Shown here: positions 10,802 to 40,537 of the stretch, piece after piece
How positions within the stretch are numbered: the first letter of the stretch is position 1
Layout: each line of letters opens with the position of its first letter
Origin: Candidatus Pacearchaeota archaeon
Lineage (GTDB): Archaea; Nanobdellota; Nanobdellia; Pacearchaeales; GW2011-AR1
Length of the DNA: 64,000 nucleotides
Assembly: GCA_026395815.1 (NCBI GenBank)
Contig: JAPLXZ010000010.1
Coordinates: 6,659-70,658, forward strand
Reading direction: 5' to 3'
Translations under genes and position numbers: made by a program
The notes under the pieces: model-generated
The model's database searches: none
Seen by the model: only the letters and a program-made list of their open reading frames with translations
What the model was told of the DNA's origin: nothing

Positions 10802-10804
10802 TTT

Positions 10805-13131: not shown

Positions 13132-13132
13132 A

Positions 13133-13822: not shown

Positions 13823-13832
13823 TGATTCACTT

Positions 13833-20018: not shown

Positions 20019-20178
20019 TTTGTATAACCTTCAAGACAGAAAATGATATTTAAATTTTTTGTAGGTGGAATATATACTATAATTAATTTAATAGAAATTG
20101 GAAGCACTAAATAAATATTCTGCAATCTGTATATTAAGACTACACAAAACTTATATACTATTTTGAAGAAAAAATTTG

Positions 20179-21156: not shown

Positions 21157-21210
21157 ATATTTTACAATTTTATAATTTACATAAATTTTTTTGTGAGAAT
21201 AATCCACAGA

Positions 21211-21921
21211 ATGTTTAAGCTTTTTATTAATACAGGAGGGTTAGGAAAAAGACTTTATTCTTTAACAAAGGATATTCCAAAGCCAATGATAATAGTAAAA
21301 GGAAAGCCCATGCTTCATCATCTTGTTGATTGGGCCAAGAAGTATGATGTTTCAGAGATAGTTATGATGAATGGGTATAAAGCAGAAAAGATTATTGAAT
21401 ACTTTAGGAATGGAGAAAATTTTGGAATAGCAATAAAACATTCAAACGAACCATATCCATTAGGAAGCGGAGGTCCATTAAGATATGCGAGAAATAATAT
21501 TACAGGGACCTTTGCCTATATGTCTGGAGATTTAATTTGTGAAGTCGATTTAAAAGAGATGTATAATATTCATACAAAAAATAATGCAGATATGACTGTC
21601 ACTTTGCATAAATCTTCTCATCCCGAGGATTCAGATATTCTTCAGGTTGATGAAAATAATCAAATAATAAGATTTGTTTCAAAACACGAGAATCATGATA
21701 ATGTCGGAGATTTGGGAAATGCTGGCTTATGCATAATGGAACCGAAAATTATAAAGTTGATGGAAGAAGAGGTTTTCAATTTTGAAAATTACCTATACCC
21801 AAGAGTACTAAATGCAAAACTAAAAATGATGGGATATATTACTGAAGAGCGAATCAAAGATATTGGGACATCAGAAAGATTAAGAGAAATTGAAGAATCT
21901 GATTTTGGAGTTGTGAAATGA
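21211..21921 (+). CDS. sugar-1-phosphate nucleotidylyltransferase (HddC/mannose-1-P guanylyltransferase-like)
   Basis: MFKLFINTGGLGKRLYSLTKDIPKPMIIV (GxGxRL signature), plus GSGGPL and SGDLICEVD. The track ORF begins at GTG 21193. The ATG 21211 places the Gly loop at the usual distance from the N-terminus. Confidence 0.8.
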   Translation: MFKLFINTGGLGKRLYSLTKDIPKPMIIVKGKPMLHHLVDWAKKYDVSEIVMMNGYKAEKIIEYFRNGENFGIAIKHSNEPYPLGSGGPLRYARNNITGTFAYMSGDLICEVDLKEMYNIHTKNNADMTVTLHKSSHPEDSDILQVDENNQIIRFVSKHENHDNVGDLGNAGLCIMEPKIIKLMEEEVFNFENYLYPRVLNAKLKMMGYITEERIKDIGTSERLREIEESDFGVVK

Positions 21922-22937
21922 AATTTTATGGAAAAAGTCCTGTTAGAATTAGTTTATGTAACGGAGGAGATACAGATTATTATGTAAATGCACTTGGCTG
22001 GACAAATCTTATAAATGCTACCCTGAGTTCTGGAACTTATTTTTGTGAAATAGAAAAAAAAGAGCAAAGTTTTATAGATTATTCTTACAAAAACAATTTC
22101 CTAAAAAAAGAGATTCATAAGAAGATTACAGATTTGGAGAATAAAGAAGAAGATTTAAGTTTAATCACTGAAACAGTAAAAGAAATAGCCCCCTCATTCA
22201 AAGGGAATATAAAAATAATAACTAATGTTCCAGAAAAGAGTGGATTAGGTGGCTCTTCTTCTTTAGTTGTTTCTTTAATAAAAGCATTGATTAAATCAAC
22301 AAATGCCAAAAATGTTACTCCAGAGCAAATAGCGTGGTTAGCTTATAAAATAGAAAGGATAAGTGCAGGAATTAAAGGAGGATATCAAGATCAGTGGGCC
22401 GCAGCTTTTTCAGGAGGAGTTAATTATCTTGAATTTAGAAAGAATAAAGTGTTCATAGAACCTCTATGGCTTTCTGAAAAATTAATGAAAAAACTTGAAG
22501 ATAATCTTATCCTTTTTTTTATAGAACCAAGAAAAGGAGATAGCGGAAATATACACAGAGAGATGGAGAATAAGATAAAAAACAAAAAAAAGGAAGATAT
22601 GAAAACAATGTTAGAAAAAAGGGGAAACGTAACTAAAACCAGAGAAGCTTTGTTAAAAGGAGATATAAAGAAATTTTCAGAATTGCTTGATACAGAACAT
22701 AAAAATAAATTAAAGTTAGTTAAAAATTTACTGAGTCCAAAAATAAAGAACATTTATTCTGCAGCATTAGCTAATGGAGCAACAACCGGAAAAATAAGCG
22801 GGGCTGGCTCAGGAGGATGTGTATTTTTTATATACGAACAAAAAGACAAAATATTTTTTATAAAAAAAATGAATGATTTAGGGTGTATATATCTCCCTCT
22901 TAAATTACAAAGGCTCAATTCTATGGGAGAAATCTGA
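21918..22937 (+). CDS. GHMP-family sugar kinase (HddA-like sugar-phosphate/anomeric kinase)
   Basis: The N-terminus SPVRISLCNGGDTDYY is of the HddA/fucokinase type. GLGGSSSLVVSLIKAL is the GHMP motif, and ISGAGSGGCVFF is also present. It has a 4-nt start/stop overlap with the nucleotidyltransferase. Confidence 0.8.
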   Translation: MKFYGKSPVRISLCNGGDTDYYVNALGWTNLINATLSSGTYFCEIEKKEQSFIDYSYKNNFLKKEIHKKITDLENKEEDLSLITETVKEIAPSFKGNIKIITNVPEKSGLGGSSSLVVSLIKALIKSTNAKNVTPEQIAWLAYKIERISAGIKGGYQDQWAAAFSGGVNYLEFRKNKVFIEPLWLSEKLMKKLEDNLILFFIEPRKGDSGNIHREMENKIKNKKKEDMKTMLEKRGNVTKTREALLKGDIKKFSELLDTEHKNKLKLVKNLLSPKIKNIYSAALANGATTGKISGAGSGGCVFFIYEQKDKIFFIKKMNDLGCIYLPLKLQRLNSMGEI

Positions 22938-25874: not shown

Positions 25875-27666
25875 AGAGTTAAAAGAGTATTGTCGAGAAT
25901 TAAGAAAAAAAATAAACCTAAATAATAAAATTCTTCTAATTAATTGCCCACAATTTAACTTGGACAGTTTTGATTTGGAAACAGCAAAAAATAGGGGTTA
26001 TTACGCATATCCGCCAACAGGATTACAATATCTTGCTTCAGCAATAGATAAGAAGAATTTAGAAGTGAGGATTCTCGATTTAAATTTTGAATTTTTGAAA
26101 AAAGTTCAGACAGATGAATCATTTAATCCTAAGAATTGGACGAACATATTGAAAGATTACATTAAAGAATATGAAGCATCAATTGTAGGGATTTCGGATT
26201 TTTATTGGGTTGATTTTCCAGCATTCAAAGAAGCCTCCCAATTCTTAAGAAAATCTAAGGATAAACCAATAATCCTGGCAGGAGGAGATTATGCAACACA
26301 TCACGCAGAAGAATTTTTGCAGGACGATTTATGCGATTTCGTCTGCCAAAGAGAATCAGAGAACAAAATAAATTTTTTATTGAACAGCCTTTATGACAAA
26401 AAAGGAAACACAAAGCCAACCCCCGGAATATTATTTATTCACAAGGGAAAATTAGAAGAAAGTAAAGGAGAAAGAGACTTGGTTGAATTGAAAGGGAATT
26501 TGATAGATAGTCATAAAATGATAAAAACTGAAGAATACTGCAAAGTCGGTTCTTTATGTCCTTTCTCCAGAATGGTTGGGAAGGATATTCCTTATGCAAC
26601 TTTAATACTTAATAGAGGATGCAGAGGGAATTGCAAGTTCTGCGGAGTTAGAGATTATATGGGAATAGGAGTAAGAAGCAGAAGCACAAAAGATGTTTTG
26701 GATGAGATAGAATATCTGTACAAAGAAAGAGGAGTAAGGCATATTGATTGGCTTGATGATGATTTTACAAGATATAACGAAAAAACTTTGGAACTGTTGC
26801 AAGGAATTATTGATAGAAAAATAAAAATTAGCTGGTCAATAAATAACGGAATTATAGCATCAGGAGTTGATGAACAATTAATGACCCAAATGAGAGATTC
26901 TGGATGTGTTGGTTTTCATGTTGGTGTTGAATCAGGAAATCCAAGTATACTAAAAGATATTAGAAAACTTGGAACAACCAAATCTTTTTTAGATTTTTCC
27001 AGAATCTCACAAAAATTTCCAGAAATGTTCATAATCGATAATTACATTTTAGGATTTCCAGGAGAAACCTTTGAACAAATAATGAATACCTTCAGATTTA
27101 GCCAAGAAATGAATATGGATTGGTCAAGTTATTCAATCTATCAACCAAATAGAGGGATTGATTTTGAAAAAAACTCTTCTGGCAAAGAAGAAAGAATAAT
27201 CGAGGATTTTGTTCCTTCAAAGTATACTGAAAAAACCAGATTAGAAAGAAAAGAAAATGTTCTTGAAGGAAAAGGAATATTCGGTCTTTTTGACAAAGAG
27301 GTTCCATCAAGAGAACAATTGAAAGAAATTTGGTTTGGTTTTGATTTAATAAGAAATCTTATACTAAACAAAAATTTAAAACCAGATGGAAATCCAGAAA
27401 AATTTGTAAGATGGATAAATTCTCTTCAGGATAGATATCCTCTACAGCCACAGTTATCTTTATTTAACGCTCTAACAAGCAGGCTAATTGGAGATGAAGA
27501 ACAAACAGAATCCCAATATGAATTGACTAAGAGAAATTTAAGAGATGAATATTGGAAAAGAAGATTCAATCAGTTTGGATTAACAGATGTTTTGGATAAT
27601 TTTCCAGGAAATCAACATCAAACAAGAGAGGCTTTGGAATATTTAAAAAAAGAAAATGAAAAATGA
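25825..27666 (+). CDS. cobalamin-binding-domain radical SAM enzyme (class B type), 613 aa
   Basis: rSAM cluster NRGCRGNCKFCGV and N-terminal ILAGGDYATHHA. It has a long C-terminal extension. It overlaps the upstream gene by 32-50 nt depending on the start codon. Confidence 0.8.
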   Translation: MKRSIIMEISDSQSSNRELKEYCRELRKKINLNNKILLINCPQFNLDSFDLETAKNRGYYAYPPTGLQYLASAIDKKNLEVRILDLNFEFLKKVQTDESFNPKNWTNILKDYIKEYEASIVGISDFYWVDFPAFKEASQFLRKSKDKPIILAGGDYATHHAEEFLQDDLCDFVCQRESENKINFLLNSLYDKKGNTKPTPGILFIHKGKLEESKGERDLVELKGNLIDSHKMIKTEEYCKVGSLCPFSRMVGKDIPYATLILNRGCRGNCKFCGVRDYMGIGVRSRSTKDVLDEIEYLYKERGVRHIDWLDDDFTRYNEKTLELLQGIIDRKIKISWSINNGIIASGVDEQLMTQMRDSGCVGFHVGVESGNPSILKDIRKLGTTKSFLDFSRISQKFPEMFIIDNYILGFPGETFEQIMNTFRFSQEMNMDWSSYSIYQPNRGIDFEKNSSGKEERIIEDFVPSKYTEKTRLERKENVLEGKGIFGLFDKEVPSREQLKEIWFGFDLIRNLILNKNLKPDGNPEKFVRWINSLQDRYPLQPQLSLFNALTSRLIGDEEQTESQYELTKRNLRDEYWKRRFNQFGLTDVLDNFPGNQHQTREALEYLKKENEK

Positions 27667-28510
27667 AAAAAATATTTTGATAATCGGAGCATCAGGGCTT
27701 ATAGGAGAGCATACCTACAATCTTCTTAAATCAGAAGGAAAAGAAGTAATAGGAACATATAATAAAAACAAAAGAGAAGGATTAATTCACTTTAATCTTG
27801 TTGATTCTTCTTTATCTTCTCTGCCATTAGAAAAAATCAGTCATGCATTAATTTGCTCTGCAATAACTAATCTTGATGAATGTAAGAAAAATCCAGAACA
27901 TTCTCATGAAGTAAATGTTAAGGGAATTGAAAGAATAATATCCGATCTAATACAAAGGGAAATACTTCCGATTTTTATTTCTTCAGGAGCAATATTTGAT
28001 GGAATTAAAGGAGGTTACAAAGAAGACAGCGAGAGAAACCCAATAAGTTTGTATGGTAAGCAAAAAGTAGAAGTTGAAAATTTCATAACCTCCAATACAG
28101 AAGATTATTTGATAATAAGGCCAGGAAAAATCTGCGATTTTCATAAACTATTCTCAGATTGGTTTGAAAGATATAAGAAAGGAGATACAATTCTCTGTGC
28201 TAACGATGAAAAGCAATCTTTTACAAGTCCAAAAGATATAGCAAGAGCTATAGACTTGCTGATAGAAAAAAATTCCAGAGGAATTTATCATCTAAATCAA
28301 CCCAATTCTTGCAGTAGATTTGAATTAGCCACTAAATTCTTTGAAGATTTTGGAATTCAAGATGCAAAAATAAAAGGTTGTTCTTTAGATGATTTTGGAG
28401 GAGAAAAAAGAGCAAAATGTTCATTTATGGATGCCAGTAAATTTATCCAAGAAACAGGATTTGAATTTACGAGCATAAAAGAGTATTACAAATCAATCGA
28501 TACAATATAA
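27656..28510 (+). CDS. NDP-4-keto-sugar reductase (RmlD-like SDR)
   Basis: ILIIGASGLIGEH Rossmann motif and catalytic LYGKQKVEVE (YxxxK), at an RmlD-like ~284 aa length. It overlaps the upstream rSAM gene by 11 nt. Confidence 0.7.
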   Translation: MKNEKNILIIGASGLIGEHTYNLLKSEGKEVIGTYNKNKREGLIHFNLVDSSLSSLPLEKISHALICSAITNLDECKKNPEHSHEVNVKGIERIISDLIQREILPIFISSGAIFDGIKGGYKEDSERNPISLYGKQKVEVENFITSNTEDYLIIRPGKICDFHKLFSDWFERYKKGDTILCANDEKQSFTSPKDIARAIDLLIEKNSRGIYHLNQPNSCSRFELATKFFEDFGIQDAKIKGCSLDDFGGEKRAKCSFMDASKFIQETGFEFTSIKEYYKSIDTI

Positions 28511-28545
28511 ATAAATTTAAGAACAATTTTAAATAAAACACTAAA

Positions 28546-30567
28546 ATGGAAAAAAAGAGTATTTATGTTGCACAATTTGGGACAGGTTCTAATATAAACC
28601 TATTGCCATTAGCTGCAGGCCAGTTGGTGTCTCGATTGAAACAGGAAAAAGAATTGCTTGAAGATTGTTCTTTAGAGGAAATAATTTTTAGAAGAGATAA
28701 TCCACAAAAATTAGTCTCAAAAATGAAACCCGTTTTAACTGCAGGATTTTCCTGTTTTTTATGGAACACTAATCACAGTCTTGCTGTTGGGAATGAAGTA
28801 AAAAAAAGATTTCCAAAATCTTTAATTGTTTTTGGCGGGCCTTCAATTCCCAAAGAATCAGCATTGAGCTACGAATTTTTTGAAAAAAATCCTTTTATAG
28901 ATGTAATATGCATTGATGAAGGAGAAGAAGTTTTTGCACAATTATGCAAAGCGCAGTTAGAAGGAAAGCCTTTTGATTCTATTCCAGGAATAATATACAG
29001 AGACAAAAAAAATAGGAAACTTATTGAAAACCCGCTTAAAGGACACTTGGACTTAAGCAAACTCCCTTCTCCTTATGTTGACGGAACATTTGATGAATTT
29101 TACGCAAAGCACGGTTCAGAATTTTCAGGAGCAATCATAGAAACAAACCGTGGCTGCCCTTACAAATGTTCTTATTGTACATGGGGAAACCAGCCTTTTC
29201 ATCAGCTAAGAGAAAAGACAAATGAAACAGTAAGAAAGGAAATTGAATGGATAGGCAAGAATAAGGTAAATTACATTGCGATGGCTGATGCAAATTTTGG
29301 AATAAGAGCAAGAGATATTGATTTTGCGAAAATGCTTGCAGAATGCAAAGAAAAATACGGAGTTCCAAATTTTATATCCGTAAGTTGGGTAAAAAACTCT
29401 TCAAAAAAAGTTTTGGAAATCGCAGATATATTAAAAAAAGCAGATGTTGGATTTAAGATAACTCTCTCTTTGCAGAGCCTCAACCCAGAAGTTGTAAAAG
29501 CAATAAATAGAGTAAACATAAAACAGGAAGATTACGATAGGATTAAAGATGCATACAGAAAAGAGAATATGTATTCTTACACAGAATTAATTTTTGGCCT
29601 GCCAATGGAAAGCTATGAATCTTATATTTCCGGAATAGAAAACTCTCTCAGTGAAAGCATTTTAGATCAACTGTATGTTTATCCTCTTTTTCTTTTTCCA
29701 AATACTCAAATAGGCTCTAAAGAGAGCAGAGAAAAATACGGAATAAAATCAAGAAAGGTTGAATGTGTCTACACAAAAAGCAAAGTATCAAATGAAATAA
29801 AAGAAGAAGTTGAAATAGTAACAGGAAATAATGCAATGCCAGAAGACAGATGGAGAGATGCATTTACTGTAGGATATCATACAATCGCCTTGCATGATGA
29901 CAGATTAGCATTTTTTATATTTCATTACCTAAAAAGAGAGTTTGGAGTAAAGATAACAGATTTGGAAACTTATGCAAGGGAGATGTCTGCCAAAGAAAAC
30001 GAAAATCTGCCAATAATAAGAAGTTCTTTTTTAAGATTGGAAAATCTTGCAAGAGATATTCAAGATAAATCAATAGATTATCTAATACGACCAAGAACTT
30101 ATGGAAATATTCCATTTGACCCACCAGAAGGAACATTCTTGGAACTTATGCTTGACAAATCAAAATTCTATTCTGAATTTTTTGAAATAACTAAATCTTA
30201 CTTAAAATCAAAATCCAGATTATTTGTTAAGAGTAAATTAAAGGATTTGTTTAAATTTCAGGAAGCAGTAATTGCAAACTTAGATGGCAAAAAAGAAGAT
30301 TCCGTAGAATTGCAATATGACTGGATAAGTTATTTTTCTCCTTCTTTTCATCTTCCAAGAAAAGAGTTAGAATACTCTCCATCAAGATTAACAATTGTAG
30401 ATGCAAATCCAAGTCATGGAAATTCTCAGGAATTTTTAAAGAATCATTTTGATGTTAGAGGAGTTCCTTGCTTTAATCCGATTTATAATTCTAATGGAGA
30501 ATTAGTATTTCCTCCTGTTCAAATGCAACATTTAAAAATCCCTACTTCATGGAGTGAAAATGGATAA
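28546..30567 (+). CDS. cobalamin-binding-domain radical SAM enzyme (class B type), 673 aa
   Basis: rSAM cluster NRGCPYKCSYCTWG, with N-terminal IVFGGPSIPKE and ICIDEGEEVF. It has a ~250 aa C-terminal extension. Confidence 0.8.
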   Translation: MEKKSIYVAQFGTGSNINLLPLAAGQLVSRLKQEKELLEDCSLEEIIFRRDNPQKLVSKMKPVLTAGFSCFLWNTNHSLAVGNEVKKRFPKSLIVFGGPSIPKESALSYEFFEKNPFIDVICIDEGEEVFAQLCKAQLEGKPFDSIPGIIYRDKKNRKLIENPLKGHLDLSKLPSPYVDGTFDEFYAKHGSEFSGAIIETNRGCPYKCSYCTWGNQPFHQLREKTNETVRKEIEWIGKNKVNYIAMADANFGIRARDIDFAKMLAECKEKYGVPNFISVSWVKNSSKKVLEIADILKKADVGFKITLSLQSLNPEVVKAINRVNIKQEDYDRIKDAYRKENMYSYTELIFGLPMESYESYISGIENSLSESILDQLYVYPLFLFPNTQIGSKESREKYGIKSRKVECVYTKSKVSNEIKEEVEIVTGNNAMPEDRWRDAFTVGYHTIALHDDRLAFFIFHYLKREFGVKITDLETYAREMSAKENENLPIIRSSFLRLENLARDIQDKSIDYLIRPRTYGNIPFDPPEGTFLELMLDKSKFYSEFFEITKSYLKSKSRLFVKSKLKDLFKFQEAVIANLDGKKEDSVELQYDWISYFSPSFHLPRKELEYSPSRLTIVDANPSHGNSQEFLKNHFDVRGVPCFNPIYNSNGELVFPPVQMQHLKIPTSWSENG

Positions 30568-31948
30568 GCAATTAATGGAATTATTAAAAAAATACAATAA
30601 GAGAGGCTCTTGGTATACAGATTATCCTCCTTTAGGCTTATGGGAACAGAAAGTTTCTGATGAAGAATATAAAACTGCTCTGACAGAATTTTCAGTTAGT
30701 TCAGGGGATAAACCTGTTTTTTTATACATTCACTATCCATTCTGTCCAAAACAATGTTATTATTGCATGTGCTTTTCAGAAGTATCTCGAAGCCATAAAA
30801 AAAGTCAGGAATTCTTAAATCATAATGGTCGTGAAGTAGATATGCTAAATAAGCTTTTTGAAAAAAATTCTTTTAAGCCAAATATAAGAAAAATTCATTA
30901 TGGCGGAGGTTCTCCTTCCTGGCTTAATCAGGAAGAGTTTGATATTCTTGATGAACAAGTCAGTAGACTAGCAGATAAATCCAACCTGGAAGAGATAGCA
31001 ATAGAAGTAGATCCAAGAACAGTAACTCCAGAAATGATGAGGCATTATCATGAAAAAGGAATTAATAGAATTTCTTTTGGAGTTCAGGATTTTGATCCAG
31101 AAGTTCAAAAAGCAATTAATAGGATTCAGCCTTATGAAATGGTTGAAAGATTAATGAGTCCAGAAATGAGGAAACTTTTCAATAGAGGCTTTAATTTTGA
31201 TATTATTTATGGAATGCCTAAACAGACTGTAGAATCTTTTAGAAAAACAATCCAGCAATGTATTGAGCTTTCTCCTGACAGGCTTGGAGTTTGCATATTG
31301 GGGTGGAGACCAGATATTTTCAAGCATCAGCAAAAGATTAACGAATCAGATCTCCCAAATTTTGAAGAATCAACTGAAATGCAATTAGAATCTATGGAGA
31401 TGCTTTTAGCTGCAGGATATGAAAGAATAGGAATAGACCATTATGCAAAGCCAGACGAGGATTTAGCTGTAACAAAAAGGCAAGACAAGCTTCATCGTAG
31501 CGCAATGGGATACAATCCAGGAGATTGTGTTGATATGATTGGGCTTGGGCCTTCTGCGATGAATAGAATGCAGAATTATTATTTCCAAAAGGAATACAAC
31601 ATTAGGAGGTACAATGAGTTGGTTGATGCAGGCAAATTTCCAGTCTTTAGAGGTTATAAGCTAAACAAAGATGAACAAATCAGAAGAGATATAATGGAAA
31701 AGATAATCTGTTATGATAGAATAGACTTTGATGAAATAGAAAAGAGATATGGAATCAATTTTAAAGAGCATTTTGAATATGAACTTAATTCATTTGGAGA
31801 GCTTATTCAGGATGGGATTATAGAACTTTCTGACAGGGAACTGACAGTTACTCCAACAGGAACATTATTCCATCGCCATGTTTGTACTGTTTTCGACGAA
31901 CTTTTGAGAAAAGGAAAAGGTTACAAACATGCAAGAGATAGTGCATAA
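30554..31948 (+). CDS. HemN-type radical SAM enzyme (oxygen-independent coproporphyrinogen oxidase family / class C rSAM)
   Basis: YNKRGSWYTDYPP resembles the HemN N-terminal GPRYTSYP-type motif. LYIHYPFCPKQCYYCMC is the cluster motif, and YGGGSPS is present. The 464 aa length is HemN-like. It overlaps the upstream rSAM gene by 14 nt. Confidence 0.85.
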   Translation: MKMDKQLMELLKKYNKRGSWYTDYPPLGLWEQKVSDEEYKTALTEFSVSSGDKPVFLYIHYPFCPKQCYYCMCFSEVSRSHKKSQEFLNHNGREVDMLNKLFEKNSFKPNIRKIHYGGGSPSWLNQEEFDILDEQVSRLADKSNLEEIAIEVDPRTVTPEMMRHYHEKGINRISFGVQDFDPEVQKAINRIQPYEMVERLMSPEMRKLFNRGFNFDIIYGMPKQTVESFRKTIQQCIELSPDRLGVCILGWRPDIFKHQQKINESDLPNFEESTEMQLESMEMLLAAGYERIGIDHYAKPDEDLAVTKRQDKLHRSAMGYNPGDCVDMIGLGPSAMNRMQNYYFQKEYNIRRYNELVDAGKFPVFRGYKLNKDEQIRRDIMEKIICYDRIDFDEIEKRYGINFKEHFEYELNSFGELIQDGIIELSDRELTVTPTGTLFHRHVCTVFDELLRKGKGYKHARDSA

Positions 31949-31980: not shown

Positions 31981-32520
31981 ATGAGAAAAAAGGCGTTAAT
32001 AATGACTTGGGAAGGATATCAAGATCAAGAAGTAATCTATCCGTTTTACAGATTGTTAGAAGATGATTTTGAAGTTGATGTATCTGCTTCTACTCCAGGA
32101 GAGATTCATGGGATTCTTGGAACTAAGATGACTGCAACTAAATCCCTAGATGAAATAAATCCTGAAGATTATGATTTATTGATTCTCCCAGGAGGTGTTA
32201 AGGCTCTTGAAAAATTAAGACAAGAACCGAGAGCATTAGCTTTCATAAATTTCTGGGATTCTAAAGGAAAAATAATCGGTAGCACTTGTCACGGTGCTCA
32301 ATTGATGATATCTGCAAAAATTGTTCAAGGCAGAAAAATTTCAGGCTATTATAGCATCAAAGATGACATTACAAACGCAGGAGCAGAATATGTAGATGCT
32401 CCTTTCGTAATAGACAAAAACATAGTATCGAGTCCGCATTATAAGCACATGGGGAAATGGATGAAAGAAACAATACGTTTGTTTAATGAACAAAATGATA
32501 AAGGAAATAAAGGTTTCTAA
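31981..32520 (+). CDS. DJ-1/PfpI family protein
   Basis: LILPGG...IGSTCHGAQLMISAKIV (nucleophile-elbow Cys-His), at the PfpI-like length of 179 aa. Confidence 0.8.
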   Translation: MRKKALIMTWEGYQDQEVIYPFYRLLEDDFEVDVSASTPGEIHGILGTKMTATKSLDEINPEDYDLLILPGGVKALEKLRQEPRALAFINFWDSKGKIIGSTCHGAQLMISAKIVQGRKISGYYSIKDDITNAGAEYVDAPFVIDKNIVSSPHYKHMGKWMKETIRLFNEQNDKGNKGF

Positions 32521-35041
32521 TATAGATAAAGAAAAAGTTTTGGAACATAGTTGTCCTAAAGACCCCAGCTTAGAGAATATGAATTTTGAAGGAATTGTAG
32601 TAAATAAGCCATGGGGTTATGAATATCTTATGTTTCAAAATAAGGAAGTTTCTATCTGGCTTTTGTATATAAAAAAAGGGCATTCAACTTCCACACATTG
32701 CCATCCGAATAAAAAAACTTCTCTTTTGTTAATATCAGGAAATGCATGCTGTTCAACTTTAAATGAAAAATTTGAACTTAGAGAAAAAGACGCTCTTATA
32801 TTCGACAAAGGAGTTTTTCACAAAACAGAAGCCCTTTCTGAAAATGGAATTTTTGTTTTAGAAACAGAAACTCCTTCAGACAAAACAGATTTATTCAGAC
32901 TTAAAGATGATTACAAAAGAGAATTGAAAGCCTATACAGAAAGGAAGAATATTACTAACAAGACTTATAACTATCATTATTTATTTCTGGATAACCAAAA
33001 AGATTCAACAAATATTTTTGGGAAATACAAATTTTATCTGAGAAAGTTCAGCACAACCGAGCAGTTTTTAAACGAAATGAATTCGATTGACGCAGATATA
33101 GCAATTGTTATTGAAGGAGAAATATTCCTTCCTGATAAGACAATCGGCAAGTCCGATGTTGTGAATGTCAATGATTTGAAAAAAGGAAAATTAATCTCTC
33201 CGTCTAAATTACTATTTTTATACGAAAGAAAAAATTCAATAAAACTTTCTGATTATGTAGTCTCTTTTTTAGACAAAAGAAAAATTAATAATGTCTTTTT
33301 AGTCTCAGGAGGAAATATTATGCATCTTTTAGAATCAGTAAGAGTCAACAAAAATATGAATTACTTTTGTACTCATCATGAGCAGGCAGCTGCAATGGCT
33401 GCAGAAGGCTATTCTAAAATGAAGAATGATATAGGACTTGCTATGGTTACAAGCGGACCAGGTGGAACAAATGCAATAACAGGGGTTGCAGGAGCATGGA
33501 TGGATTCAAATCCAGTTCTGATAATCTCAGGGCAGTCATATTCAAGTCAGACTATTGGAGATTCAGGATTAAGGCAATTGGGAGTTCAGGAAATAAATAT
33601 TGTAGATCTTGTAAGGCCAATAACAAAATATGCAGTTATGGTTAAAGATCCGAATAAAATAAAGTATCATCTTGAAAAAGCAACATATCTGGCAACTCAT
33701 GGAAGGCCAGGACCAGTTTGGATAGACATCCCCATCAATATACAAATGTCAATGATTGAAGAAAAAGATTTAGACTCATTCAAGATTTCAAAAGAAGATG
33801 AAATCAAATACTCAGATTTAAAAGAAAAAGTAAGAGAAACAATTGAATTGATAAAAAATTCAAAAAGACCAATAATTCTTTTGGGAAATGGAGTAAGATT
33901 AGGGAAATCCGAAAAAGAATTCTACCAGTTAATAGAAAAACTTCCGTTTCCAATAGTTACCTCAAGAAATGCGAATGATTTGATTTGGAACGACAATAAA
34001 TTGTATGTTGGAAGAGTTGGCTCTTTTGGACAAAGATATGCTAATTTTGCAATTCAAAATTCTGATTTGCTTTTGAGTCTTGGTTCTAGAATAGCTCTTG
34101 CAGTAACAGGCTGGGCATACAAAGATTTTGCAAGAGAAGCTAAAAAAATAGTAGTGGACATAGATCCTGCAGAATTAAAAAAACCAATAATAAAACCAGA
34201 CATTCCAATCAACTGCGACATAAAAGAATTTATCTTGGAATTTTTGAATCAATTGAAAGAATCAGACATTCCGGATATTTCAGAATGGAAAGAAAAAATA
34301 GATTACTGGAAAAATAAATATCTTTTGCCAAAAGATGAAGAGAAAGAAAACTTTGTGGACATTTATTCTTTCATAGATCAACTATCAGAAGAGCTAAATG
34401 ATAAAGATATAGTAATCACAGATATGGGAATGAGTTTTCAGTGCACTATGCAAAAATTCAAATTAAAAAAAGGACAAAGACTTTTCAGTTCCTCGGCTTT
34501 GGCATCAATGGGTTTTGGGCTTCCAGGAGCTATAGGCGCTTGTGTAGCGAATAATAAAAAGAGAATTATTTGCATAGCAGGGGATGGAGGTTTGCAAATG
34601 AACATACAAGAACTTCAGACAGTCTTCCATAACAAATTTCCAATAAAGATTTTTATTATAAATAATAAAGGCTATTCTTCAATGAGAGAAACTCAAACTG
34701 CTTACTTTAGCGGATACATAGCATCTGAATCGAGCAGTGGAGTTAGCATGCCGAATTTTATAAAAATTGCAGAAGCGTATGGATTGAAAACAAAAAGGAT
34801 AGAAAACCAAAAAAATCTGAAAGAAGATTTAAAGGAAGTTCTTGATTATAATGGCCCAATCGTTTGTGATATTAACATATCGGATAAGCAGCAAGTTTAT
34901 CCAAAGCAAGGAAATTATGTGAGACCAGATGGAAAGCCTATTCCAAGGCCAATAGAAGATATGAGTCCTTTCATGGACAGAGAAGAATTCAAGAAAGATA
35001 TGATTATTGATACAATCCTATTCGACACTTACAAAGAATAG
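32486..35041 (+). CDS. fusion protein: N-terminal cupin domain plus acetolactate-synthase-like TPP-dependent enzyme
   Basis: Cupin: NKPWGYEYLMF...GHSTSTHCHPNKKTSLLLISG...VFHKTEA. From about residue 260 it is ALS/YerE-like: VSGGNIMHLLES...HHEQAAAMAAEGY...VTSGPGGTNAITGVAGAWMDSNPVLIISGQ and the TPP motif IAGDGGLQMNIQELQTV...IINNKGY. The start is uncertain (32486, 32495 or 32579). Confidence 0.8.
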   Translation: MNKMIKEIKVSNIDKEKVLEHSCPKDPSLENMNFEGIVVNKPWGYEYLMFQNKEVSIWLLYIKKGHSTSTHCHPNKKTSLLLISGNACCSTLNEKFELREKDALIFDKGVFHKTEALSENGIFVLETETPSDKTDLFRLKDDYKRELKAYTERKNITNKTYNYHYLFLDNQKDSTNIFGKYKFYLRKFSTTEQFLNEMNSIDADIAIVIEGEIFLPDKTIGKSDVVNVNDLKKGKLISPSKLLFLYERKNSIKLSDYVVSFLDKRKINNVFLVSGGNIMHLLESVRVNKNMNYFCTHHEQAAAMAAEGYSKMKNDIGLAMVTSGPGGTNAITGVAGAWMDSNPVLIISGQSYSSQTIGDSGLRQLGVQEINIVDLVRPITKYAVMVKDPNKIKYHLEKATYLATHGRPGPVWIDIPINIQMSMIEEKDLDSFKISKEDEIKYSDLKEKVRETIELIKNSKRPIILLGNGVRLGKSEKEFYQLIEKLPFPIVTSRNANDLIWNDNKLYVGRVGSFGQRYANFAIQNSDLLLSLGSRIALAVTGWAYKDFAREAKKIVVDIDPAELKKPIIKPDIPINCDIKEFILEFLNQLKESDIPDISEWKEKIDYWKNKYLLPKDEEKENFVDIYSFIDQLSEELNDKDIVITDMGMSFQCTMQKFKLKKGQRLFSSSALASMGFGLPGAIGACVANNKKRIICIAGDGGLQMNIQELQTVFHNKFPIKIFIINNKGYSSMRETQTAYFSGYIASESSSGVSMPNFIKIAEAYGLKTKRIENQKNLKEDLKEVLDYNGPIVCDINISDKQQVYPKQGNYVRPDGKPIPRPIEDMSPFMDREEFKKDMIIDTILFDTYKE

Positions 35042-38379: not shown

Positions 38380-39396
38380 CTACCAGCAATAAAAATCTTC
38401 TTCACAAAAATTATTTAAAATAATTTTGTAATCTTTCCTTATAGCCCTTATGACTTTAGGAAGCCTTTCTTTATCGTCTCTTTTATGATATGCAGACAGA
38501 GATAACACTGGTTTAAACTTCTTTATTGTTTTGCTTGCCCCTATTAGCAATTTATCTTCAAATCCTTCAACATCCATTTTTATGAAGTCTACTCTTTTGA
38601 TTTTGTTTTTTGCTACAAAATCATCTAATTTTACTATTTCAATCTTCTCGGATTTTTGTCCTGCTACTTCTCCTATTTTGGCTCCACCATCAACTCCTCC
38701 AGAAAAAGAGATATTTCCAGAACTGTTTTCATCACCTAATGCTTTTCTGACAACAACAATTCTGTCTTGCATTTTATTCAATTTTATATTTTCTTCTAGA
38801 ACATTAGCTGTGTTGGGAACAGGTTCAAATGCATATACTCTTTTTGCTCCCATGTAAACTGCAAGCAAAGAGAAATCTCCCATATAAGAACCAGCATCAA
38901 TAATTATTTTATTCTTCATATTTTTTTCAGAAACATTATACTGGTTTGTGTACATAATTTGCTTTATTCCAAGAATTGTATCCCACATTAAATAATGGCT
39001 TTTTAAAATGAAATAAAAAGTCTTGTCTTTAAGAAAAACTTCTATTCTCACAACTTTTTTCAATTTGTTCATCGAAGCAACTATAGGAGAAAGCAATGGC
39101 AAGCACATTCCCCTGCTTACTCTTGGTTCAATATTCTTTAGCTTTCTCATAATTCCTGTGAAAAGAATCTTGCTTAGTTTTGTTTTGCTCATGCCTTTCC
39201 AAGGCAAGTTTATTATCTGTCTGATTGAATTGTACTCCATAATCCTGAACACCCTGTCTATTTTCTTAAGAGCAATAGAAATTCTTTCTCCCTCTTTTGT
39301 AATAAGATCAATTTTTTCTATTTGGAACCCTGCTCTCTCAGGCATTTTATTTTCTTTTGATTCCTGTTTCATTCTTCGTCGTATAAATCCCTCCAT
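38380..39396 (-). CDS. FkbM-family methyltransferase with an N-terminal extension
   Basis: IIIDAGSYMGDFSLLAVYMGAKRVYAFEPVPNTANVLEENIKLN (motif I plus the FkbM-type FEP block) and VDFIKMDVEGFE. The ~150 aa N-terminal region has no recognisable motif. Confidence 0.7.
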   Translation of the reverse strand: MEGFIRRRMKQESKENKMPERAGFQIEKIDLITKEGERISIALKKIDRVFRIMEYNSIRQIINLPWKGMSKTKLSKILFTGIMRKLKNIEPRVSRGMCLPLLSPIVASMNKLKKVVRIEVFLKDKTFYFILKSHYLMWDTILGIKQIMYTNQYNVSEKNMKNKIIIDAGSYMGDFSLLAVYMGAKRVYAFEPVPNTANVLEENIKLNKMQDRIVVVRKALGDENSSGNISFSGGVDGGAKIGEVAGQKSEKIEIVKLDDFVAKNKIKRVDFIKMDVEGFEDKLLIGASKTIKKFKPVLSLSAYHKRDDKERLPKVIRAIRKDYKIILNNFCEEDFYCW

Positions 39397-39893
39397 TCTA
39401 TAATCATAACAGGCCTTTTCGATTCCTTTGCCTTATTATAAGCTTCTTCAACTTCATAAGCCGTTTTTGGAGTGTAAACAGGAAAGTCAACAAGATCTTT
39501 GAATGCTCTGCTGAAATCCTGCATATGTTGTATCCCAGGATTAAGGGGATTTCTGCTTCCAATTACAGCCCTTATAATTACAGAAGGAGCAAATTCTCCG
39601 AGAGAGAGTTGTTCTATTTTGCTTAAGTGATTTACAATTCCATCTAATGCGTTCAGCATAAAATCATGCCTTTCGAAAAAAACAACAGGATGATACCCTT
39701 CTAAAGCCATTCCTGTTGCAAGTCCTATCATAAGATTTTCTGCTACAGGGGTTTCTATCTTTTTTTCTTTAGGAACATCTTTTAATGTTCCATATCCCTG
39801 AGAACCAAAATTGACATTGTACCCAATGAATACAACATTTTCCTTTTCAGCAAGCATCTCCATGGATTTTTTAACAGCATCCTTGTATTTCAT
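39369..39893 (-). CDS. TPP-dependent enzyme, short E1 beta-like subunit (pyrimidine-binding domain only)
   Basis: IETPVAENLMIGLATGMALEGYHPVVFFERHDFMLNALDGIVNHLSK matches the Pyr-domain pattern. At 174 aa it lacks the C-terminal domain present in 17071..17973. Confidence 0.65.
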   Translation of the reverse strand: MKYKDAVKKSMEMLAEKENVVFIGYNVNFGSQGYGTLKDVPKEKKIETPVAENLMIGLATGMALEGYHPVVFFERHDFMLNALDGIVNHLSKIEQLSLGEFAPSVIIRAVIGSRNPLNPGIQHMQDFSRAFKDLVDFPVYTPKTAYEVEEAYNKAKESKRPVMIIEWRDLYDEE

Positions 39894-40537
39894 TAAAAAC
39901 TCGAACCCCCACTTTTAATTCCATTAAAATCAACAAACTTCCCTGTTCCAACATGAGGATAAGTAGGAGTGTAATGATATCTTCTTACACAGCTAGGCCA
40001 TTCTATTTCTGACTTTCCATATCTCTCATTCTTTGGAGTTTCTACAGAACGATTATTATCTTCAAGAATAAATGTACACGGAAGATCATGTCCATCAACA
40101 TATCTTACTGCTTCATAAAAATGTCCTTCATCTTCTGCACCATCCCCAACAAAACACCAAACATGCTGATTGCTCTTTTTTCTTTTTAATCCTAAAGCAA
40201 CTCCTGAAGCAATTGCAACCGTTCCTGCAACAATTGCAGATGTCAAGAAATTAACATTTTTATCAAAGAAATTCATTATGCTATTTCCTTCCATCATTAG
40301 CTTCTCTAATTTCTCAGGAGAACCTCCTGCAAGAAGATAATGGTAATGGAAACGATGAGTTGAAAAGATGTAATCACCTTGGTTGATCTCTCTGAATATT
40401 TCTATTAACTGCTCTTCATTTCCTCCAGAAAAATGAACAGGATAAGGAATCTTAGCGTCATCCCATAAATCAGCAATTCTTTTTTCAAAGCCGATTAATC
40501 CTTCCTTGGTTATTTTTATTTCCATTTTATTGTTCAT
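39893..40537 (-). CDS. TPP-dependent enzyme, short E1 alpha-like subunit
   Basis: TPP motif CFVGDGAEDEGHFYEAVRYVDGHDLPCTFILEDNNRSV. 214 aa. Its stop abuts the beta-like gene. Confidence 0.65.
   Translation of the reverse strand: MNNKMEIKITKEGLIGFEKRIADLWDDAKIPYPVHFSGGNEEQLIEIFREINQGDYIFSTHRFHYHYLLAGGSPEKLEKLMMEGNSIMNFFDKNVNFLTSAIVAGTVAIASGVALGLKRKKSNQHVWCFVGDGAEDEGHFYEAVRYVDGHDLPCTFILEDNNRSVETPKNERYGKSEIEWPSCVRRYHYTPTYPHVGTGKFVDFNGIKSGGSSF

What the first reader, a model, noticed from the sequence alone, without database searches (positions are those of the whole stretch)
32486..35041. Cupin fused to an acetolactate-synthase/YerE-like TPP enzyme
Seen: a single 851-aa ORF joins an N-terminal cupin (GHSTSTHCHPNKKTSLLLISG...FHKTEA) through a ~100-aa linker to a complete ALS-like TPP enzyme. 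That enzyme has the GDGGLQMN TPP motif. A stand-alone paralog of the TPP part lies at 44635..46428. Established: YerE of Yersinia is an ALS-like TPP enzyme that adds a two-carbon branch to a CDP-4-keto sugar during yersiniose synthesis. Cupin-fold enzymes include NDP-keto-sugar 3,4-ketoisomerases and 3,5-epimerases (FdtA, RmlC). Inference: the fusion could channel an isomerised keto-sugar straight into C-C bond formation. I am not aware of a described fusion of this kind.
Basis: partly seen in the sequence, partly recalled or inferred. Interest (0 to 1): 0.6.

Follow-up and report, generated by a model that had tools for sequence, protein, structure and literature searches.

The report
Double-cupin fused to sugar-branching thiamine enzyme
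This archaeal gene really does join a two-barrel cupin module to a thiamine-dependent carbon-carbon ligase of the kind that adds side branches to activated sugars. The same cupin module recurs across many microbial phyla beside or fused to such ligases and a DJ-1-type protein, which points to an unstudied extra step in making branched surface sugars.

Summary
The 851-aa ORF at 32486..35041 is real, has no stops, and is conserved. More than 118 full-length homologs (45-93% identity) exist in independent assemblies.

The supposed ~100-aa linker is a folded second beta-barrel. The N-terminus is therefore a ~250-aa bicupin-like module joined directly to the thiamine (ThDP) enzyme.

The ThDP part is not a branched-chain amino-acid acetolactate synthase (ALS). 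It scores below every ALS cut-off, and the 704-kb genome has no ilvC or ALS small subunit. It falls in a well-supported clade with JanthE, a characterised YerE-like ketone-accepting carboligase.

The cupin is not RmlC/FdtA-like. It is a distinct family with weak type-II phosphomannose-isomerase affinity. It has invariant His71, His73 and His112, and an invariant Lys76 where cupins normally carry the metal-binding Glu.

Across 80 species loci the module takes several forms:
- fused to the ALS-like ThDP enzyme (38 loci);
- a separate gene directly upstream of it (20 loci);
- next to or fused with E1-type ThDP pairs;
- fused to DJ-1 or to a GDP-fucose-synthase-like domain.

A DJ-1/PfpI gene lies within 6 kb in 65 of the 80 loci. 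NDP-sugar genes surround them.

Verdict: a real, widespread and undescribed variant of acyl-branched-sugar biosynthesis. The cupin's exact reaction is unresolved.

The parts
32486..35041 (+). Bicupin::ThDP-carboligase fusion gene (851 aa from the first ATG; probable true start Met4 at 32495)
   Evidence: Open frame with conserved full-length homologs, all of which start MIK.
32486..32935 (+). Barrel 1 of the cupin module (residues 1-150), carrying all invariant residues: K41-P-W-G-Y-E46, T68, S69, H71 (32696-32698), H73 (32702-32704), K76 (32711-32713), F111, H112 (32819-32821), T114, E126, E128, P130, K133, D135, R138, D141, Y143, R145, Y150
   Evidence: Alignments A1/A2. AF2 model. PF01050 hit in 28/30 members and Cupin_2 in 23/30. 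H71/H73/H112 align with the three His iron ligands (as I recall them) of bacterial cysteine dioxygenase. K76 aligns with the canonical cupin Glu in two other cupin alignments.
32936..33235 (+). It is folded but poorly conserved and has no candidate catalytic residues.
   Evidence: AF2 pLDDT is 88-97 across 150-250. The best Foldseek matches are bicupins. It is present in the stand-alone ~250-aa forms too.
33242..33553 (+). ThDP enzyme N-terminal (pyrimidine-binding) domain, with the invariant catalytic Glu299 in HHEQAA
33833..34234 (+). ThDP enzyme central domain
34424..34873 (+). ThDP enzyme C-terminal diphosphate-binding domain with GDGGLQMN...NNKGY (G699, D700, G701 ... N727)
34874..35038 (+). 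Conserved C-terminal tail (RPDGxxxPRPIEDMxPFxxREEF), shared with the paralog and with JanthE
31981..32520 (+). DJ-1/PfpI (PH1704-type) gene with an intact Cys-His (STCHGAQ). It overlaps the fusion's start and is the most conserved partner of the cupin module.
   Evidence: A homolog is present in 65/80 species loci and is fused to the cupin in L071.
44635..46428 (-). Stand-alone paralog of the ThDP part (597 aa, 44% identity), also JanthE-like
39369..40537 (-). Miniaturised E1alpha-like/E1beta-like ThDP pair, a second type of sugar-branching ThDP enzyme in the same island
   Evidence: In other genomes E1-type pairs are the partners of the stand-alone cupin.
17071..18800 (-). Full-size E1alpha/E1beta-like pair, highly similar (374 and 428 bits) to the pairs that neighbour stand-alone cupins elsewhere
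20176..22937 (+). NDP-sugar supply genes: 4,6-dehydratase-like SDR, HddC/mannose-1-P guanylyltransferase-like nucleotidyltransferase, and HddA-like GHMP kinase
   Evidence: All score below equivalog cut-offs, so the exact sugar is not fixed.
27656..31948 (+). RmlD-like reductase, 673-aa B12-radical-SAM enzyme and HemN-like radical-SAM enzyme directly upstream. The order RmlD-like / B12-rSAM / HemN-like / DJ-1 / fusion is the same in a Pacearchaeota relative (L005).

Best explanation
The gene encodes a two-module enzyme of an NDP-sugar branching pathway.

Shown:
- The C-terminal 600 aa are a complete ThDP-dependent carboligase with intact catalytic residues.
- This carboligase belongs to the clade that contains JanthE, a YerE-like ketone-accepting enzyme.
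- The N-terminal 250 aa are a folded double-cupin of a distinct, unnamed family.
- That cupin family is linked to ThDP sugar-branching enzymes by repeated gene fusion, gene fission and adjacency.
- A PfpI-type DJ-1 protein is a third near-constant partner.

Inferred:
- The ThDP module decarboxylates a 2-oxo acid (pyruvate or a longer one) and adds the acyl-anion equivalent to the carbonyl of an NDP-4-keto-6-deoxy sugar, here probably a GDP-linked hexose or heptose. This makes a tertiary-alcohol acyl branch.
- Barrel 1 of the cupin uses its invariant His71/His73/Lys76/His112 pocket, with or without a metal, to enolise an alpha-hydroxy-ketone. My preferred reading is that it repositions or epimerises the keto-sugar acceptor just before ligation.
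- The cupin would therefore work like a keto-isomerase or epimerase without belonging to the RmlC/FdtA family.
For: ThDP module:
- Three ThDP domains are present.
- Glu299 and the GDG...NN motif are invariant.
- Best solved relatives are JanthE at 403 bits, PpYerE at 305 and AHAS at 270.
- In an ML tree of 80 sequences, all cupin-associated ThDP enzymes plus JanthE form one clade (SH-aLRT 99) that excludes PpYerE and E. coli AHAS I.
- JanthE's own locus is a textbook branched-sugar cluster: nucleotidyltransferase, 4,6-dehydratase, a 441-aa DegT-family protein, JanthE, reductase, and a DmpF/DmpG-like pair. This matches the published scheme (PMC9306805; PMC12247030).

Not an ALS:
- ALS models score below their cut-offs.
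- The genome has no ilvC or ilvN.

Cupin module:
- AF2 gives pLDDT 94.4 and pTM 0.91 for residues 1-250, and pTM 0.79 for the full length with no flexible linker.
- There are about 30 invariant residues, all in barrel 1.

Functional linkage across 80 species loci:
- 38 loci have the cupin fused to the ALS-like ThDP enzyme.
- 20 have a separate ~250-aa cupin gene with the ThDP gene starting -29 to +57 nt from the cupin stop, broken exactly at the fusion junction.
- Of 19 loci without an ALS-like ThDP enzyme, 17 have an E1beta-like and 14 an E1alpha-like gene.
- 2 loci have cupin::E1alpha fusions, 1 has DJ-1::cupin, and 3 have GDP-fucose-synthase-like::cupin (415 bits to NF047922).
- DJ-1 is present in 65/80 loci.

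Sugar context:
- CDP-glucose-type genes occur in candidate phyla radiation (CPR) bacteria.
- GDP-heptose or GDP-mannose-type genes occur in DPANN archaea (tiny-genome archaea such as Pacearchaeota and Woesearchaeota) and in the window.
Against: - No biochemical data exist for any cupin-bearing member.
- The acceptor sugar and the donor acid are not identified.
- The window's NDP-sugar genes all score below equivalog cut-offs.
- Whether the cupin acts before or after ligation is not resolved. Gene order is DJ-1-cupin-ThDP in ALS-type loci but E1alpha-E1beta-DJ-1-cupin in E1-type loci.
- The cupin shows no sequence or fold affinity to the known NDP-keto-sugar cupins.
- JanthE works in a cluster with no cupin or DJ-1, so the module is not needed for the ligation itself. 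My prediction that JanthE would have a cupin neighbour failed.
- PpYerE falls outside the clade on a long branch next to the single AHAS outgroup, so 'YerE-like' in the strict sense rests on JanthE.
- In one Nitrospinaceae locus (L002) no nucleotidyltransferase or dehydratase lies within 10 kb.
Confidence: 0.6

Rival explanations
1. The cupin acts after ligation. It isomerises or rearranges the alpha-hydroxy-ketone made by the ThDP enzyme (carbonyl transposition or an acyloin-type alkyl shift), possibly followed by reduction. This is the same logic as acetolactate synthase then ketol-acid reductoisomerase, or DXS then DXR.
For: - ThDP ligases always produce alpha-hydroxy-ketones.
- In E1-type loci the order is E1alpha-E1beta-DJ-1-cupin.
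- In anammox bacteria the cupin is fused to a GDP-fucose-synthase-like SDR domain, i.e. next to a potential reductase.
- The module partners with two unrelated ThDP folds whose shared feature is the product type.
- An earlier agent proposed the same idea for the Fcl::bicupin. That is a lead only.
Against: - A tertiary carbinol has no alpha-proton, so simple enediol isomerisation is impossible. An alkyl shift has no precedent in cupins.
- In ALS-type loci the gene order is DJ-1, cupin, then ThDP.
- There is no direct evidence either way.
Confidence: 0.2
2. The cupin acts on the 2-oxo-acid donor, not the sugar. It would bind an alpha-keto acid at a metal and isomerise, tautomerise or decarboxylate it before the ThDP module uses it.
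For: - Foldseek hits include BacB and AerE, bicupin isomerases solved with a 2-oxo acid bound (e.g. 5zbf, 4-hydroxyphenylpyruvate-bound AerE), and oxalate decarboxylase.
- Many loci carry donor-supply genes next to the cupin and ThDP genes: HpcH aldolase in 6 loci and Ldh_2 dehydrogenase in 16 loci.
- YerE-like enzymes differ mainly in donor preference.
Against: - Foldseek TM-scores are only ~0.4 and reflect the generic bicupin fold.
- E1-type sugar-branching enzymes are reported to use only pyruvate, yet they also pair with the cupin.
- Fusion to a GDP-fucose-synthase-like domain points to an NDP-sugar ligand.
- The window has neither an aldolase nor Ldh_2.
Confidence: 0.1
3. The bicupin is non-catalytic. 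It would be an NDP-sugar-binding, regulatory or oligomerisation module, playing the role the ACT-domain small subunit plays for acetolactate synthase.
For: - The canonical metal-binding Glu is replaced by Lys76.
- No regulatory small subunit exists in the genome.
- JanthE functions without the module.
Against: - About 30 invariant residues, including three His, a Lys and several acidic residues, are concentrated in one barrel across archaea and many bacterial phyla at only 31-37% overall identity. That is the pattern of an active site.
- The module also occurs with E1-type enzymes, DJ-1 and an SDR, which does not fit a dedicated regulator of one enzyme.
Confidence: 0.07
4. It is an ordinary branched-chain amino-acid acetolactate synthase with an accessory domain, or the fusion is an assembly or frameshift artefact.
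For: - Sources name homologs 'acetolactate synthase large subunit'.
- The best NCBIfam hits are ALS models.
Against: - All ALS models score below their cut-offs (434.8 against 538.35 for TIGR00118).
- ilvC and ilvN are absent while the controls ring in 14/14 and 13/14 genomes.
- The context is a glycan island.
- More than 118 full-length homologs and 38 species loci carry the same fusion.
- The full-length AF2 model is compact.
Confidence: 0.03

Closest known systems
JanthE (Janthinobacterium sp. HH01; PDB 8RPH/8RPI/8RPJ), a YerE-like ThDP-dependent aldehyde-ketone carboligase
   Same: Closest solved relative of the ThDP part (403 bits, aligned over residues 2-590 of 601). It lies in the same well-supported clade, has the same three-domain layout and shares the C-terminal tail. 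Its gene lies in an NDP-deoxy-keto-sugar branching cluster.
   Different: JanthE is a 610-aa stand-alone protein with a CDG motif instead of GDG. Its cluster has no cupin and no DJ-1. It has a 441-aa DegT-family protein between the dehydratase and the ligase, where the cupin loci have DJ-1 plus cupin.
YerE / ErwE / MMAR_2332 pathway for acyl-branched sugars (yersiniose, erwiniose, caryophyllose)
   Same: The overall logic is shared: nucleotidyltransferase, 4,6-dehydratase, ThDP ligase adding an acyl unit from a 2-oxo acid to a keto-sugar, reductase, sometimes an aldolase that builds the donor, then a glycosyltransferase. All of these gene types occur around the cupin-ThDP genes.
   Different: The published schemes contain no cupin and no DJ-1/PfpI (0 mentions). 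PpYerE falls outside the clade holding the fusion. The window adds many B12-radical-SAM and SPASM radical-SAM enzymes.
E1alpha/beta-like (alphaKADH2) sugar-branching ThDP enzymes (KbDH-alpha/beta; also, from a finding retrieved, AviB1/B2 and Pau11/12)
   Same: This is the second ThDP enzyme type known to branch deoxy-keto sugars. In 17 of 19 cupin loci that lack an ALS-like enzyme such a pair is present, and in two loci the cupin is fused to the E1alpha-like subunit. The window holds two such pairs.
   Different: It is a different ThDP fold family from the one fused here. No cupin partner is mentioned in the two papers I read.
Type II phosphomannose isomerase cupin domain (Pfam PF01050, C-terminus of ManC/AlgA-type enzymes)
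   Same: It is the only specific cupin family that the module hits consistently (28/30 members, best E 1.4e-7). There is a weak TIGR01479 C-terminal hit. From my own knowledge of that family, the motifs are similar (KPWGYE; S-x-H-x-H; E-x-E-x-P...D-L-x-R-x-x-D-x-Y-x-R).
   Different: The window protein scores below the gathering threshold (18.2 against 23.6). The canonical Glu position holds Lys76. A second barrel is appended. The context is NDP-sugars and ThDP enzymes, not a GMP domain.
RmlC / FdtA / QdtA NDP-4-keto-sugar epimerases and 3,4-ketoisomerases
   Same: They share the cupin fold, and enolisation next to a sugar ketone is plausibly analogous chemistry. They also share the position in the pathway, right after a 4,6-dehydratase.
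   Different: No member hits PF00908 or PF05523. None is in the Foldseek top 50. The known enzymes are, from my knowledge, single-barrel, metal-free proteins of ~140-190 aa. This is resemblance in proposed function only, not membership.
Bicupin enzymes (oxalate decarboxylase OxdC, quercetinase YxaG, BacB, AerE) and bacterial 3-His cysteine dioxygenase
   Same: The bicupins are the best Foldseek matches (E ~1e-10) and have two-barrel architecture. H71/H73/H112 align with the three His ligands of B. subtilis cysteine dioxygenase (2.3 A rmsd over 116 columns for 3eqe).
   Different: TM-scores are only ~0.4 at 11-18% identity. Only barrel 1 has conserved residues. Many carriers are, from my knowledge, anaerobes and the clusters are full of radical-SAM enzymes, which argues against O2-dependent chemistry (inference).

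Membership tests
YerE/JanthE-like ThDP carboligases (decarboxylase superfamily) | TPP_enzyme_N, TPP_enzyme_M and TPP_enzyme_C domains with the catalytic Glu and the GDG...NN diphosphate-Mg motif | tested here: met
   (129, 109 and 107 bits). (E299, G699, G701 and N727 invariant; D700 >=90%).
YerE/JanthE-like ThDP carboligases (decarboxylase superfamily) | Closer to characterised YerE-like enzymes than to acetohydroxyacid synthases | tested here: met
   Bit scores are JanthE 403 > PpYerE 305 > AHAS <=270. The fusion shares a clade with JanthE at SH-aLRT 99.
YerE/JanthE-like ThDP carboligases (decarboxylase superfamily) | Monophyly with YerE proper | tested here: inconclusive
   PpYerE sits outside the clade, joined to the single AHAS outgroup by long branches (flagged by the tree tool). 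YpYerE itself was not available.
YerE/JanthE-like ThDP carboligases (decarboxylase superfamily) | Gene neighbourhood with NDP-sugar nucleotidyltransferase, 4,6-dehydratase and glycosyltransferases | tested here: met
   Window. Relatives. One exception is L002.
YerE/JanthE-like ThDP carboligases (decarboxylase superfamily) | Catalyses addition of a 2-oxo-acid-derived acyl anion to a non-activated ketone (deoxy-keto sugar) | not testable with these tools
   Needs an enzyme assay.
Biosynthetic acetolactate synthase large subunit (IlvB/G/I) | Reaches the curated equivalog score | tested here: not met
   TIGR00118 scores 434.8 against a cut-off of 538.35. All other ALS equivalogs are further below.
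Biosynthetic acetolactate synthase large subunit (IlvB/G/I) | Genome also encodes the ALS small subunit and the next pathway enzyme IlvC | tested here: not met
   There are 0 matches for TIGR00119 and TIGR00465 in the 704-kb, 85%-complete genome, while controls are positive in 13/14 and 14/14 genomes.
Cupin superfamily | Double-stranded beta-helix (jelly-roll barrel) fold | tested here: met
   The AF2 model has pLDDT 94.4. 867 PDB matches at E<=0.001; all 50 listed are cupins.
Cupin superfamily | Canonical metal motif G(X)5HXH(X)3-4E(X)6G plus the motif-2 His | tested here: inconclusive
   G65(X)5-H71-x-H73 and H112 are invariant, but the Glu position is an invariant Lys76. A 3-His metal site or a metal-free His/Lys site both remain possible.
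RmlC / FdtA-type NDP-keto-sugar cupins | Sequence membership (PF00908 dTDP_sugar_isom or PF05523 FdtA) | tested here: not met
   0 of 30 members hit either family at E<=1.
RmlC / FdtA-type NDP-keto-sugar cupins | Closest structural neighbours are RmlC/FdtA/QdtA structures | tested here: not met
   None appears in the Foldseek top 50.
Type II phosphomannose isomerase cupin (PF01050) | Reaches the Pfam gathering score | tested here: not met
   The window module scores 18.2 bits against 23.6. 28/30 relatives hit at E<=1, best 1.4e-7. The relationship is distant and is not membership.
DJ-1/PfpI (partner gene 31981..32520) | PF01965 above cut-off and a Cys-His nucleophile elbow | tested here: met
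   138.5 bits. STCHGAQ aligns with SICHGPQ of PH1704.

The most novel reading that the evidence does not exclude
The bicupin (with DJ-1/PfpI) catalyses a reaction not yet known in nucleotide-sugar biosynthesis, on the alpha-hydroxy-ketone made or used by the ThDP ligase. One example would be a metal-assisted acyloin or alpha-ketol rearrangement that moves the new branch or changes ring size, the sugar counterpart of ketol-acid reductoisomerase or DXR. If so, the cupin/DJ-1/ThDP triad defines a new class of rearranged branched sugars on the surfaces of DPANN archaea, CPR bacteria, anammox bacteria and Bacteroidota.
Probability: 0.2. Interest if true: 0.8.

Novelty: new variant of a known kind. 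Interest (0 to 1): 0.6.

Why it matters
ThDP-dependent sugar branching is currently described as aldolase, ThDP ligase and reductase acting on a deoxy-keto sugar. These data show that a large part of the family travels with two further conserved proteins, a dedicated bicupin and a PfpI-type DJ-1. The cupin profile matched 453 clusters at E<=1e-30 and relatives in 160 species across more than 20 phyla. The same two proteins also accompany the unrelated E1-type sugar-branching enzymes. The link is made by fusions in four different combinations.

This gives three things:
1. A testable prediction of a missing step in acyl-branched-sugar biosynthesis.
2. A functional handle on an unnamed cupin family. 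Pfam finds nothing in the stand-alone proteins at E<=0.001.
3. Context for JanthE, a biocatalyst whose physiological substrates are reported as unknown.

It also shows that organisms with very small genomes (704 kb here) invest heavily in elaborate surface-sugar chemistry.

Tried and rejected
I relied on independent assemblies instead.
2. Sequence search of the cupin against PDB, both as a single sequence and as a profile, gave only marginal hits (best E 0.0092). No solved close relative exists.
3. Foldseek could not assign a specific cupin subfamily. It returned generic bicupin matches with TM ~0.4.
4. I predicted that JanthE, which nests inside the 'stand-alone ThDP after cupin' clade, would have cupin and DJ-1 neighbours. 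It does not. The module is therefore not obligatory for this clade.
5. I considered that the conserved cassette might be unrelated to sugars, because the Nitrospinaceae locus L002 shows no NDP-sugar genes within 10 kb. I rejected this as the general case because nucleotidyltransferase and dehydratase genes flank the module in most other loci, and the module is fused to a GDP-fucose-synthase-like domain.
6. I considered an O2-dependent 3-His dioxygenase role, prompted by the cysteine-dioxygenase and PCO_ADO hits. I judged it unlikely because, from my knowledge, many carriers are anaerobes and the clusters are rich in radical-SAM enzymes. This is inference only.
7. Literature searches for any cupin plus ThDP sugar-branching description found nothing relevant.
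8. Model coordinates are not exposed to the Python box, so I could not measure active-site geometry or the distance between the cupin pocket and the ThDP site.

Full report
OBSERVATION

The ORF 32486..35041 (+) is open for 851 codons, and the reverse strand is closed. Pfam finds TPP_enzyme_N (253-356), TPP_enzyme_M (450-583) and TPP_enzyme_C (647-796), all well above threshold. It also gives a sub-threshold Cupin_2 hit at 60-119.

The frame is not an artefact:
- A 93%-identical 851-aa protein comes from a different assembly.
- More than 118 proteins of 835-872 aa cover 95-100% of the query at 45-70% identity.
- The own-genome search shows no internal stop.

All homologs begin MIK, so Met4 (32495) is the likely start. 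The upstream DJ-1 gene ends at 32520, which gives a 26-nt overlap.

ANATOMY

AlphaFold2 on an alignment of 30 N-terminal regions gives a very confident model of residues 1-250 (pLDDT 94.4, pTM 0.91).

The best Foldseek matches are bicupins (oxalate decarboxylase, quercetinase, BacB, AerE; E ~1e-10, TM ~0.4). Single-barrel thiol dioxygenases and phosphomannose isomerases rank lower. No RmlC or FdtA structure is in the top 50.

The full-length model (pLDDT 87, pTM 0.79) runs from the last cupin strand (240-247) into the first ThDP helix (254) with no disordered segment.

Conservation is strongly asymmetric. About 30 invariant residues lie in barrel 1: K41-P-W-G-Y-E46, T68, S69, H71, H73, K76, F111, H112, T114, E126, E128, P130, K133, D135, R138, D141, Y143, R145 and Y150. 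Barrel 2 has almost none.

H71, H73 and H112 align with the three His ligands (as I recall them) of bacterial cysteine dioxygenase. In two other cupin alignments the invariant K76 sits where the canonical metal-binding Glu should be. The pocket is therefore either a 3-His metal site or a metal-free His/Lys acid-base site. I cannot tell which.

WHICH CUPIN?

Scanning all 30 members against Pfam at E<=1 gives these counts:
- PF01050 (type-II phosphomannose-isomerase cupin): 28 of 30, best E 1.4e-7;
- Cupin_2: 23 of 30;
- RmlC (PF00908): 0;
- FdtA (PF05523): 0.

The window copy is below the PF01050 gathering score. Two stand-alone relatives checked have no Pfam family at all at E<=0.001. Profile search of the PDB finds nothing better than E 0.009. 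This is a distinct, unnamed cupin family with only a distant PMI-II affinity.

WHICH ThDP ENZYME?

Every NCBIfam ALS model matches but scores below its cut-off. The 704-kb, 85%-complete genome has no ilvC and no ALS small subunit, while the controls ring.

The best solved relatives are JanthE (8RPH, 403 bits), then PpYerE (5AHK, 305 bits), then AHAS (<=270 bits). The paralog gives the same order. JanthE is a YerE-like ketone-accepting carboligase whose physiological substrates are reported as unknown (PMC12188165).

I built a maximum-likelihood tree of 80 ThDP domains: 36 fused, 19 stand-alone after a cupin, 19 second paralogs, 3 other locus copies, JanthE, PpYerE and E. coli AHAS I. All cupin-associated enzymes plus JanthE fall in one clade (SH-aLRT 99). 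JanthE nests inside the Bacteroidota 'stand-alone after cupin' group (support 100). PpYerE lies outside on a long branch next to the outgroup, so that placement is unsafe.

JanthE's own locus reads: nucleotidyltransferase / 4,6-dehydratase / 441-aa DegT-family protein / JanthE / reductase / DmpF-like / DmpG-like / SDR / GT2. This matches the published erwiniose-type scheme (PMC9306805; PMC12247030). It has no cupin and no DJ-1, so a prediction I made failed. The ligation chemistry evidently does not need the module.

ROSETTA-STONE NETWORK

A scan of one genome per species with the cupin alignment found relatives in 160 species, and the best 80 loci were analysed. They span:
- DPANN archaea and Methanosarcinales;
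- many CPR lineages;
- Elusimicrobiota, Nitrospirota, Nitrospinota, Chloroflexota, Bacteroidota, Myxococcota and Pseudomonadota;
- the anammox genera Brocadia and Scalindua.

ORF analysis and tblastn with the window's proteins give these classes:

| Form of the cupin module | Loci |
|---|---|
| Fused to an ALS-like ThDP enzyme (830-925 aa) | 38 |
| Separate 242-267-aa gene, ThDP gene starts -29 to +57 nt from its stop | 20 |
| Separate gene, ALS-like ThDP enzyme elsewhere in the locus | 2 |
| Separate gene, no ALS-like enzyme within 6 kb | 13 |
| GDP-fucose-synthase-like::cupin (415 bits to NF047922) | 3 |
| cupin::E1alpha-like | 2 |
| DJ-1::cupin | 1 |
| L032: 864-aa ORF, probably also a fusion (TPP hit overruns the ORF end) | 1 |

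Further points:
- About half of the fused genes are followed by a second stand-alone paralog.
- The split forms break exactly at the fusion junction ...ERKN|SIKLSDY....
- Among the 19 loci without an ALS-like enzyme, 17 have an E1beta-like and 14 an E1alpha-like gene.
- The fusions to E1alpha, DJ-1 and the SDR were confirmed by Pfam.

E1-type pairs are the second enzyme class known to branch deoxy-keto sugars. The module therefore follows the reaction type, not one protein fold.

Unbiased clustering of all neighbours in 83 loci ranks the partners as follows: ThDP enzyme 78, DJ-1/PfpI 60, NDP-sugar SDR 51, HAD_2 hydrolase 42, DegT 28, nucleotidyltransferase 28, B12-radical-SAM 27, Ldh_2 16. By tblastn, DJ-1 is present in 65 of the 80 species loci.

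An HMM search of 1.84 billion representatives finds 453 clusters at E<=1e-30 and 1964 at E<=0.001. Most are ~250-aa stand-alone proteins. Database names are generic: 'thiamine pyrophosphate-binding protein', 'acetolactate synthase large subunit', 'NAD-dependent epimerase/dehydratase'.

SUGAR CONTEXT

- Compact CPR cassettes read: GT2 / glucose-1-P cytidylyltransferase-like / CDP-glucose-4,6-dehydratase-like / second cytidylyltransferase-like / DJ-1 / cupin / ThDP / Ldh_2 / SDR / methyltransferase.
- Bacteroidota cassettes add an HpcH aldolase and a HAD hydrolase.
- DPANN E1-type loci carry an HddC-HddA fusion, a GmhB-like phosphatase and a GDP-mannose-dehydratase-like gene.
- The window has a 4,6-dehydratase-like SDR, an HddC/mannose-1-P-guanylyltransferase-like gene and an HddA-like kinase at 20176-22937. 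It also has two E1-like pairs, two JanthE-like enzymes, a NUDIX gene, methyltransferases and at least nine radical-SAM enzymes.
- The order RmlD-like / 673-aa B12-rSAM / HemN-like / DJ-1 / fusion is the same in a Pacearchaeota relative (L005).

MECHANISM

Shown:
- An intact ThDP carboligase of the JanthE clade.
- A folded, strongly conserved bicupin.
- Repeated fusion, fission and adjacency tying the bicupin, DJ-1/PfpI and either type of sugar-branching ThDP enzyme to NDP-sugar genes.

Inferred:
- The ThDP module adds an acyl-anion equivalent from a 2-oxo acid to an NDP-4-keto-6-deoxy sugar.
- Barrel 1 enolises an alpha-hydroxy-ketone.

I favour action on the acceptor before ligation (~35-40%). 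The reasons are that DJ-1 and cupin sit between the dehydratase and the ligase in ALS-type cassettes, and that they occupy the place where JanthE's cluster has a DegT-family protein.

Action on the ligation product (~20%) and on the donor acid (~10%) remain open. So does a non-catalytic role (~7%). The DJ-1 partner has an intact Cys-His elbow. Its role is unknown.

COMPARISON AND NOVELTY

The pathway type is known (YerE, ErwE, MMAR_2332, JanthE, alphaKADH2 pairs). The cupin and DJ-1 components, and this fusion, are not in the literature I could search.

Earlier notes of this scan independently flagged the DJ-1 overlap here and Fcl::bicupin fusions in other genomes. I re-derived the Fcl::cupin fusion from Brocadia loci.

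I class the finding as a new variant of a known kind, with interest 0.6.

Noticed in passing
L086 (Janthinobacterium sp. HH01, AMWD01000002.1) 6805-15782: JanthE's physiological substrates are reported as unknown. Its locus is an erwiniose-type cluster: nucleotidyltransferase, 4,6-dehydratase, 441-aa DegT-family protein (the size I recall for E1/RfbH-type 3-dehydrases), JanthE, reductase, acylating acetaldehyde dehydrogenase and a DmpG-like 4-hydroxy-2-oxovalerate aldolase. This suggests an NDP-3,6-dideoxy-4-keto sugar acceptor and 4-hydroxy-2-oxopentanoate as donor.
   Followed up: partly
L067 5264-6982; L083 5894-7528; L071 5479-6666; L041/L050/L055 (Brocadia) e.g. L050 4942-6672: Other fusions of the same bicupin module: cupin::E1alpha-like ThDP subunit (572 and 544 aa), DJ-1::cupin (395 aa) and GDP-L-fucose-synthase-like::cupin (576 aa). 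The last is also named in Kuenenia stuttgartiensis records.
   Followed up: partly
e.g. L040 11172-11828; L082 10386-11027; L050 7610-8386: A ~218-aa HAD_2 hydrolase is the fourth most conserved neighbour (42 of 83 loci, across all architecture classes). It is absent from the 64-kb window. Its role is unexplained; from my knowledge of the HAD_2 family, a phosphatase or a beta-phosphoglucomutase-like mutase are both possible.
   Followed up: no
L004 5942-7771; L011, L014, L016, L019-L022, L024, L026, L027, L030, L038, L040, L045, L047, L049, L056, L068: In about half of the fused loci a second, stand-alone JanthE-like ThDP gene follows the fusion directly, and a DJ-1 gene follows that in most of them. 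These second copies form their own clade (SH-aLRT 98). The window's paralog at 44635 is instead 10 kb away and branches at the base of the whole clade.
   Followed up: partly
window 31981-32520 / 32486-32520: The DJ-1/PfpI gene's last 26-35 nt overlap the start of the fusion gene in a different frame. In split loci the cupin and ThDP genes also overlap or abut (-29 to +57 nt), which suggests co-translation of the trio.
   Followed up: yes
L002 (Nitrospinaceae) 462-14169: Here the fusion lies with DJ-1, several radical-SAM enzymes (B12-type and HemN-like), NUDIX, methyltransferases, an SDR and a PhyH dioxygenase. No nucleotidyltransferase, 4,6-dehydratase or glycosyltransferase lies within 10 kb. 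This is the one context that does not obviously look like a sugar cluster.
   Followed up: no
L032 5911-8514: The cupin ORF (864 aa) ends 9 nt before the end of the in-frame ThDP match. It looks like the same fusion with a small coordinate or frame discrepancy at the 3' end. I did not examine it.
   Followed up: no
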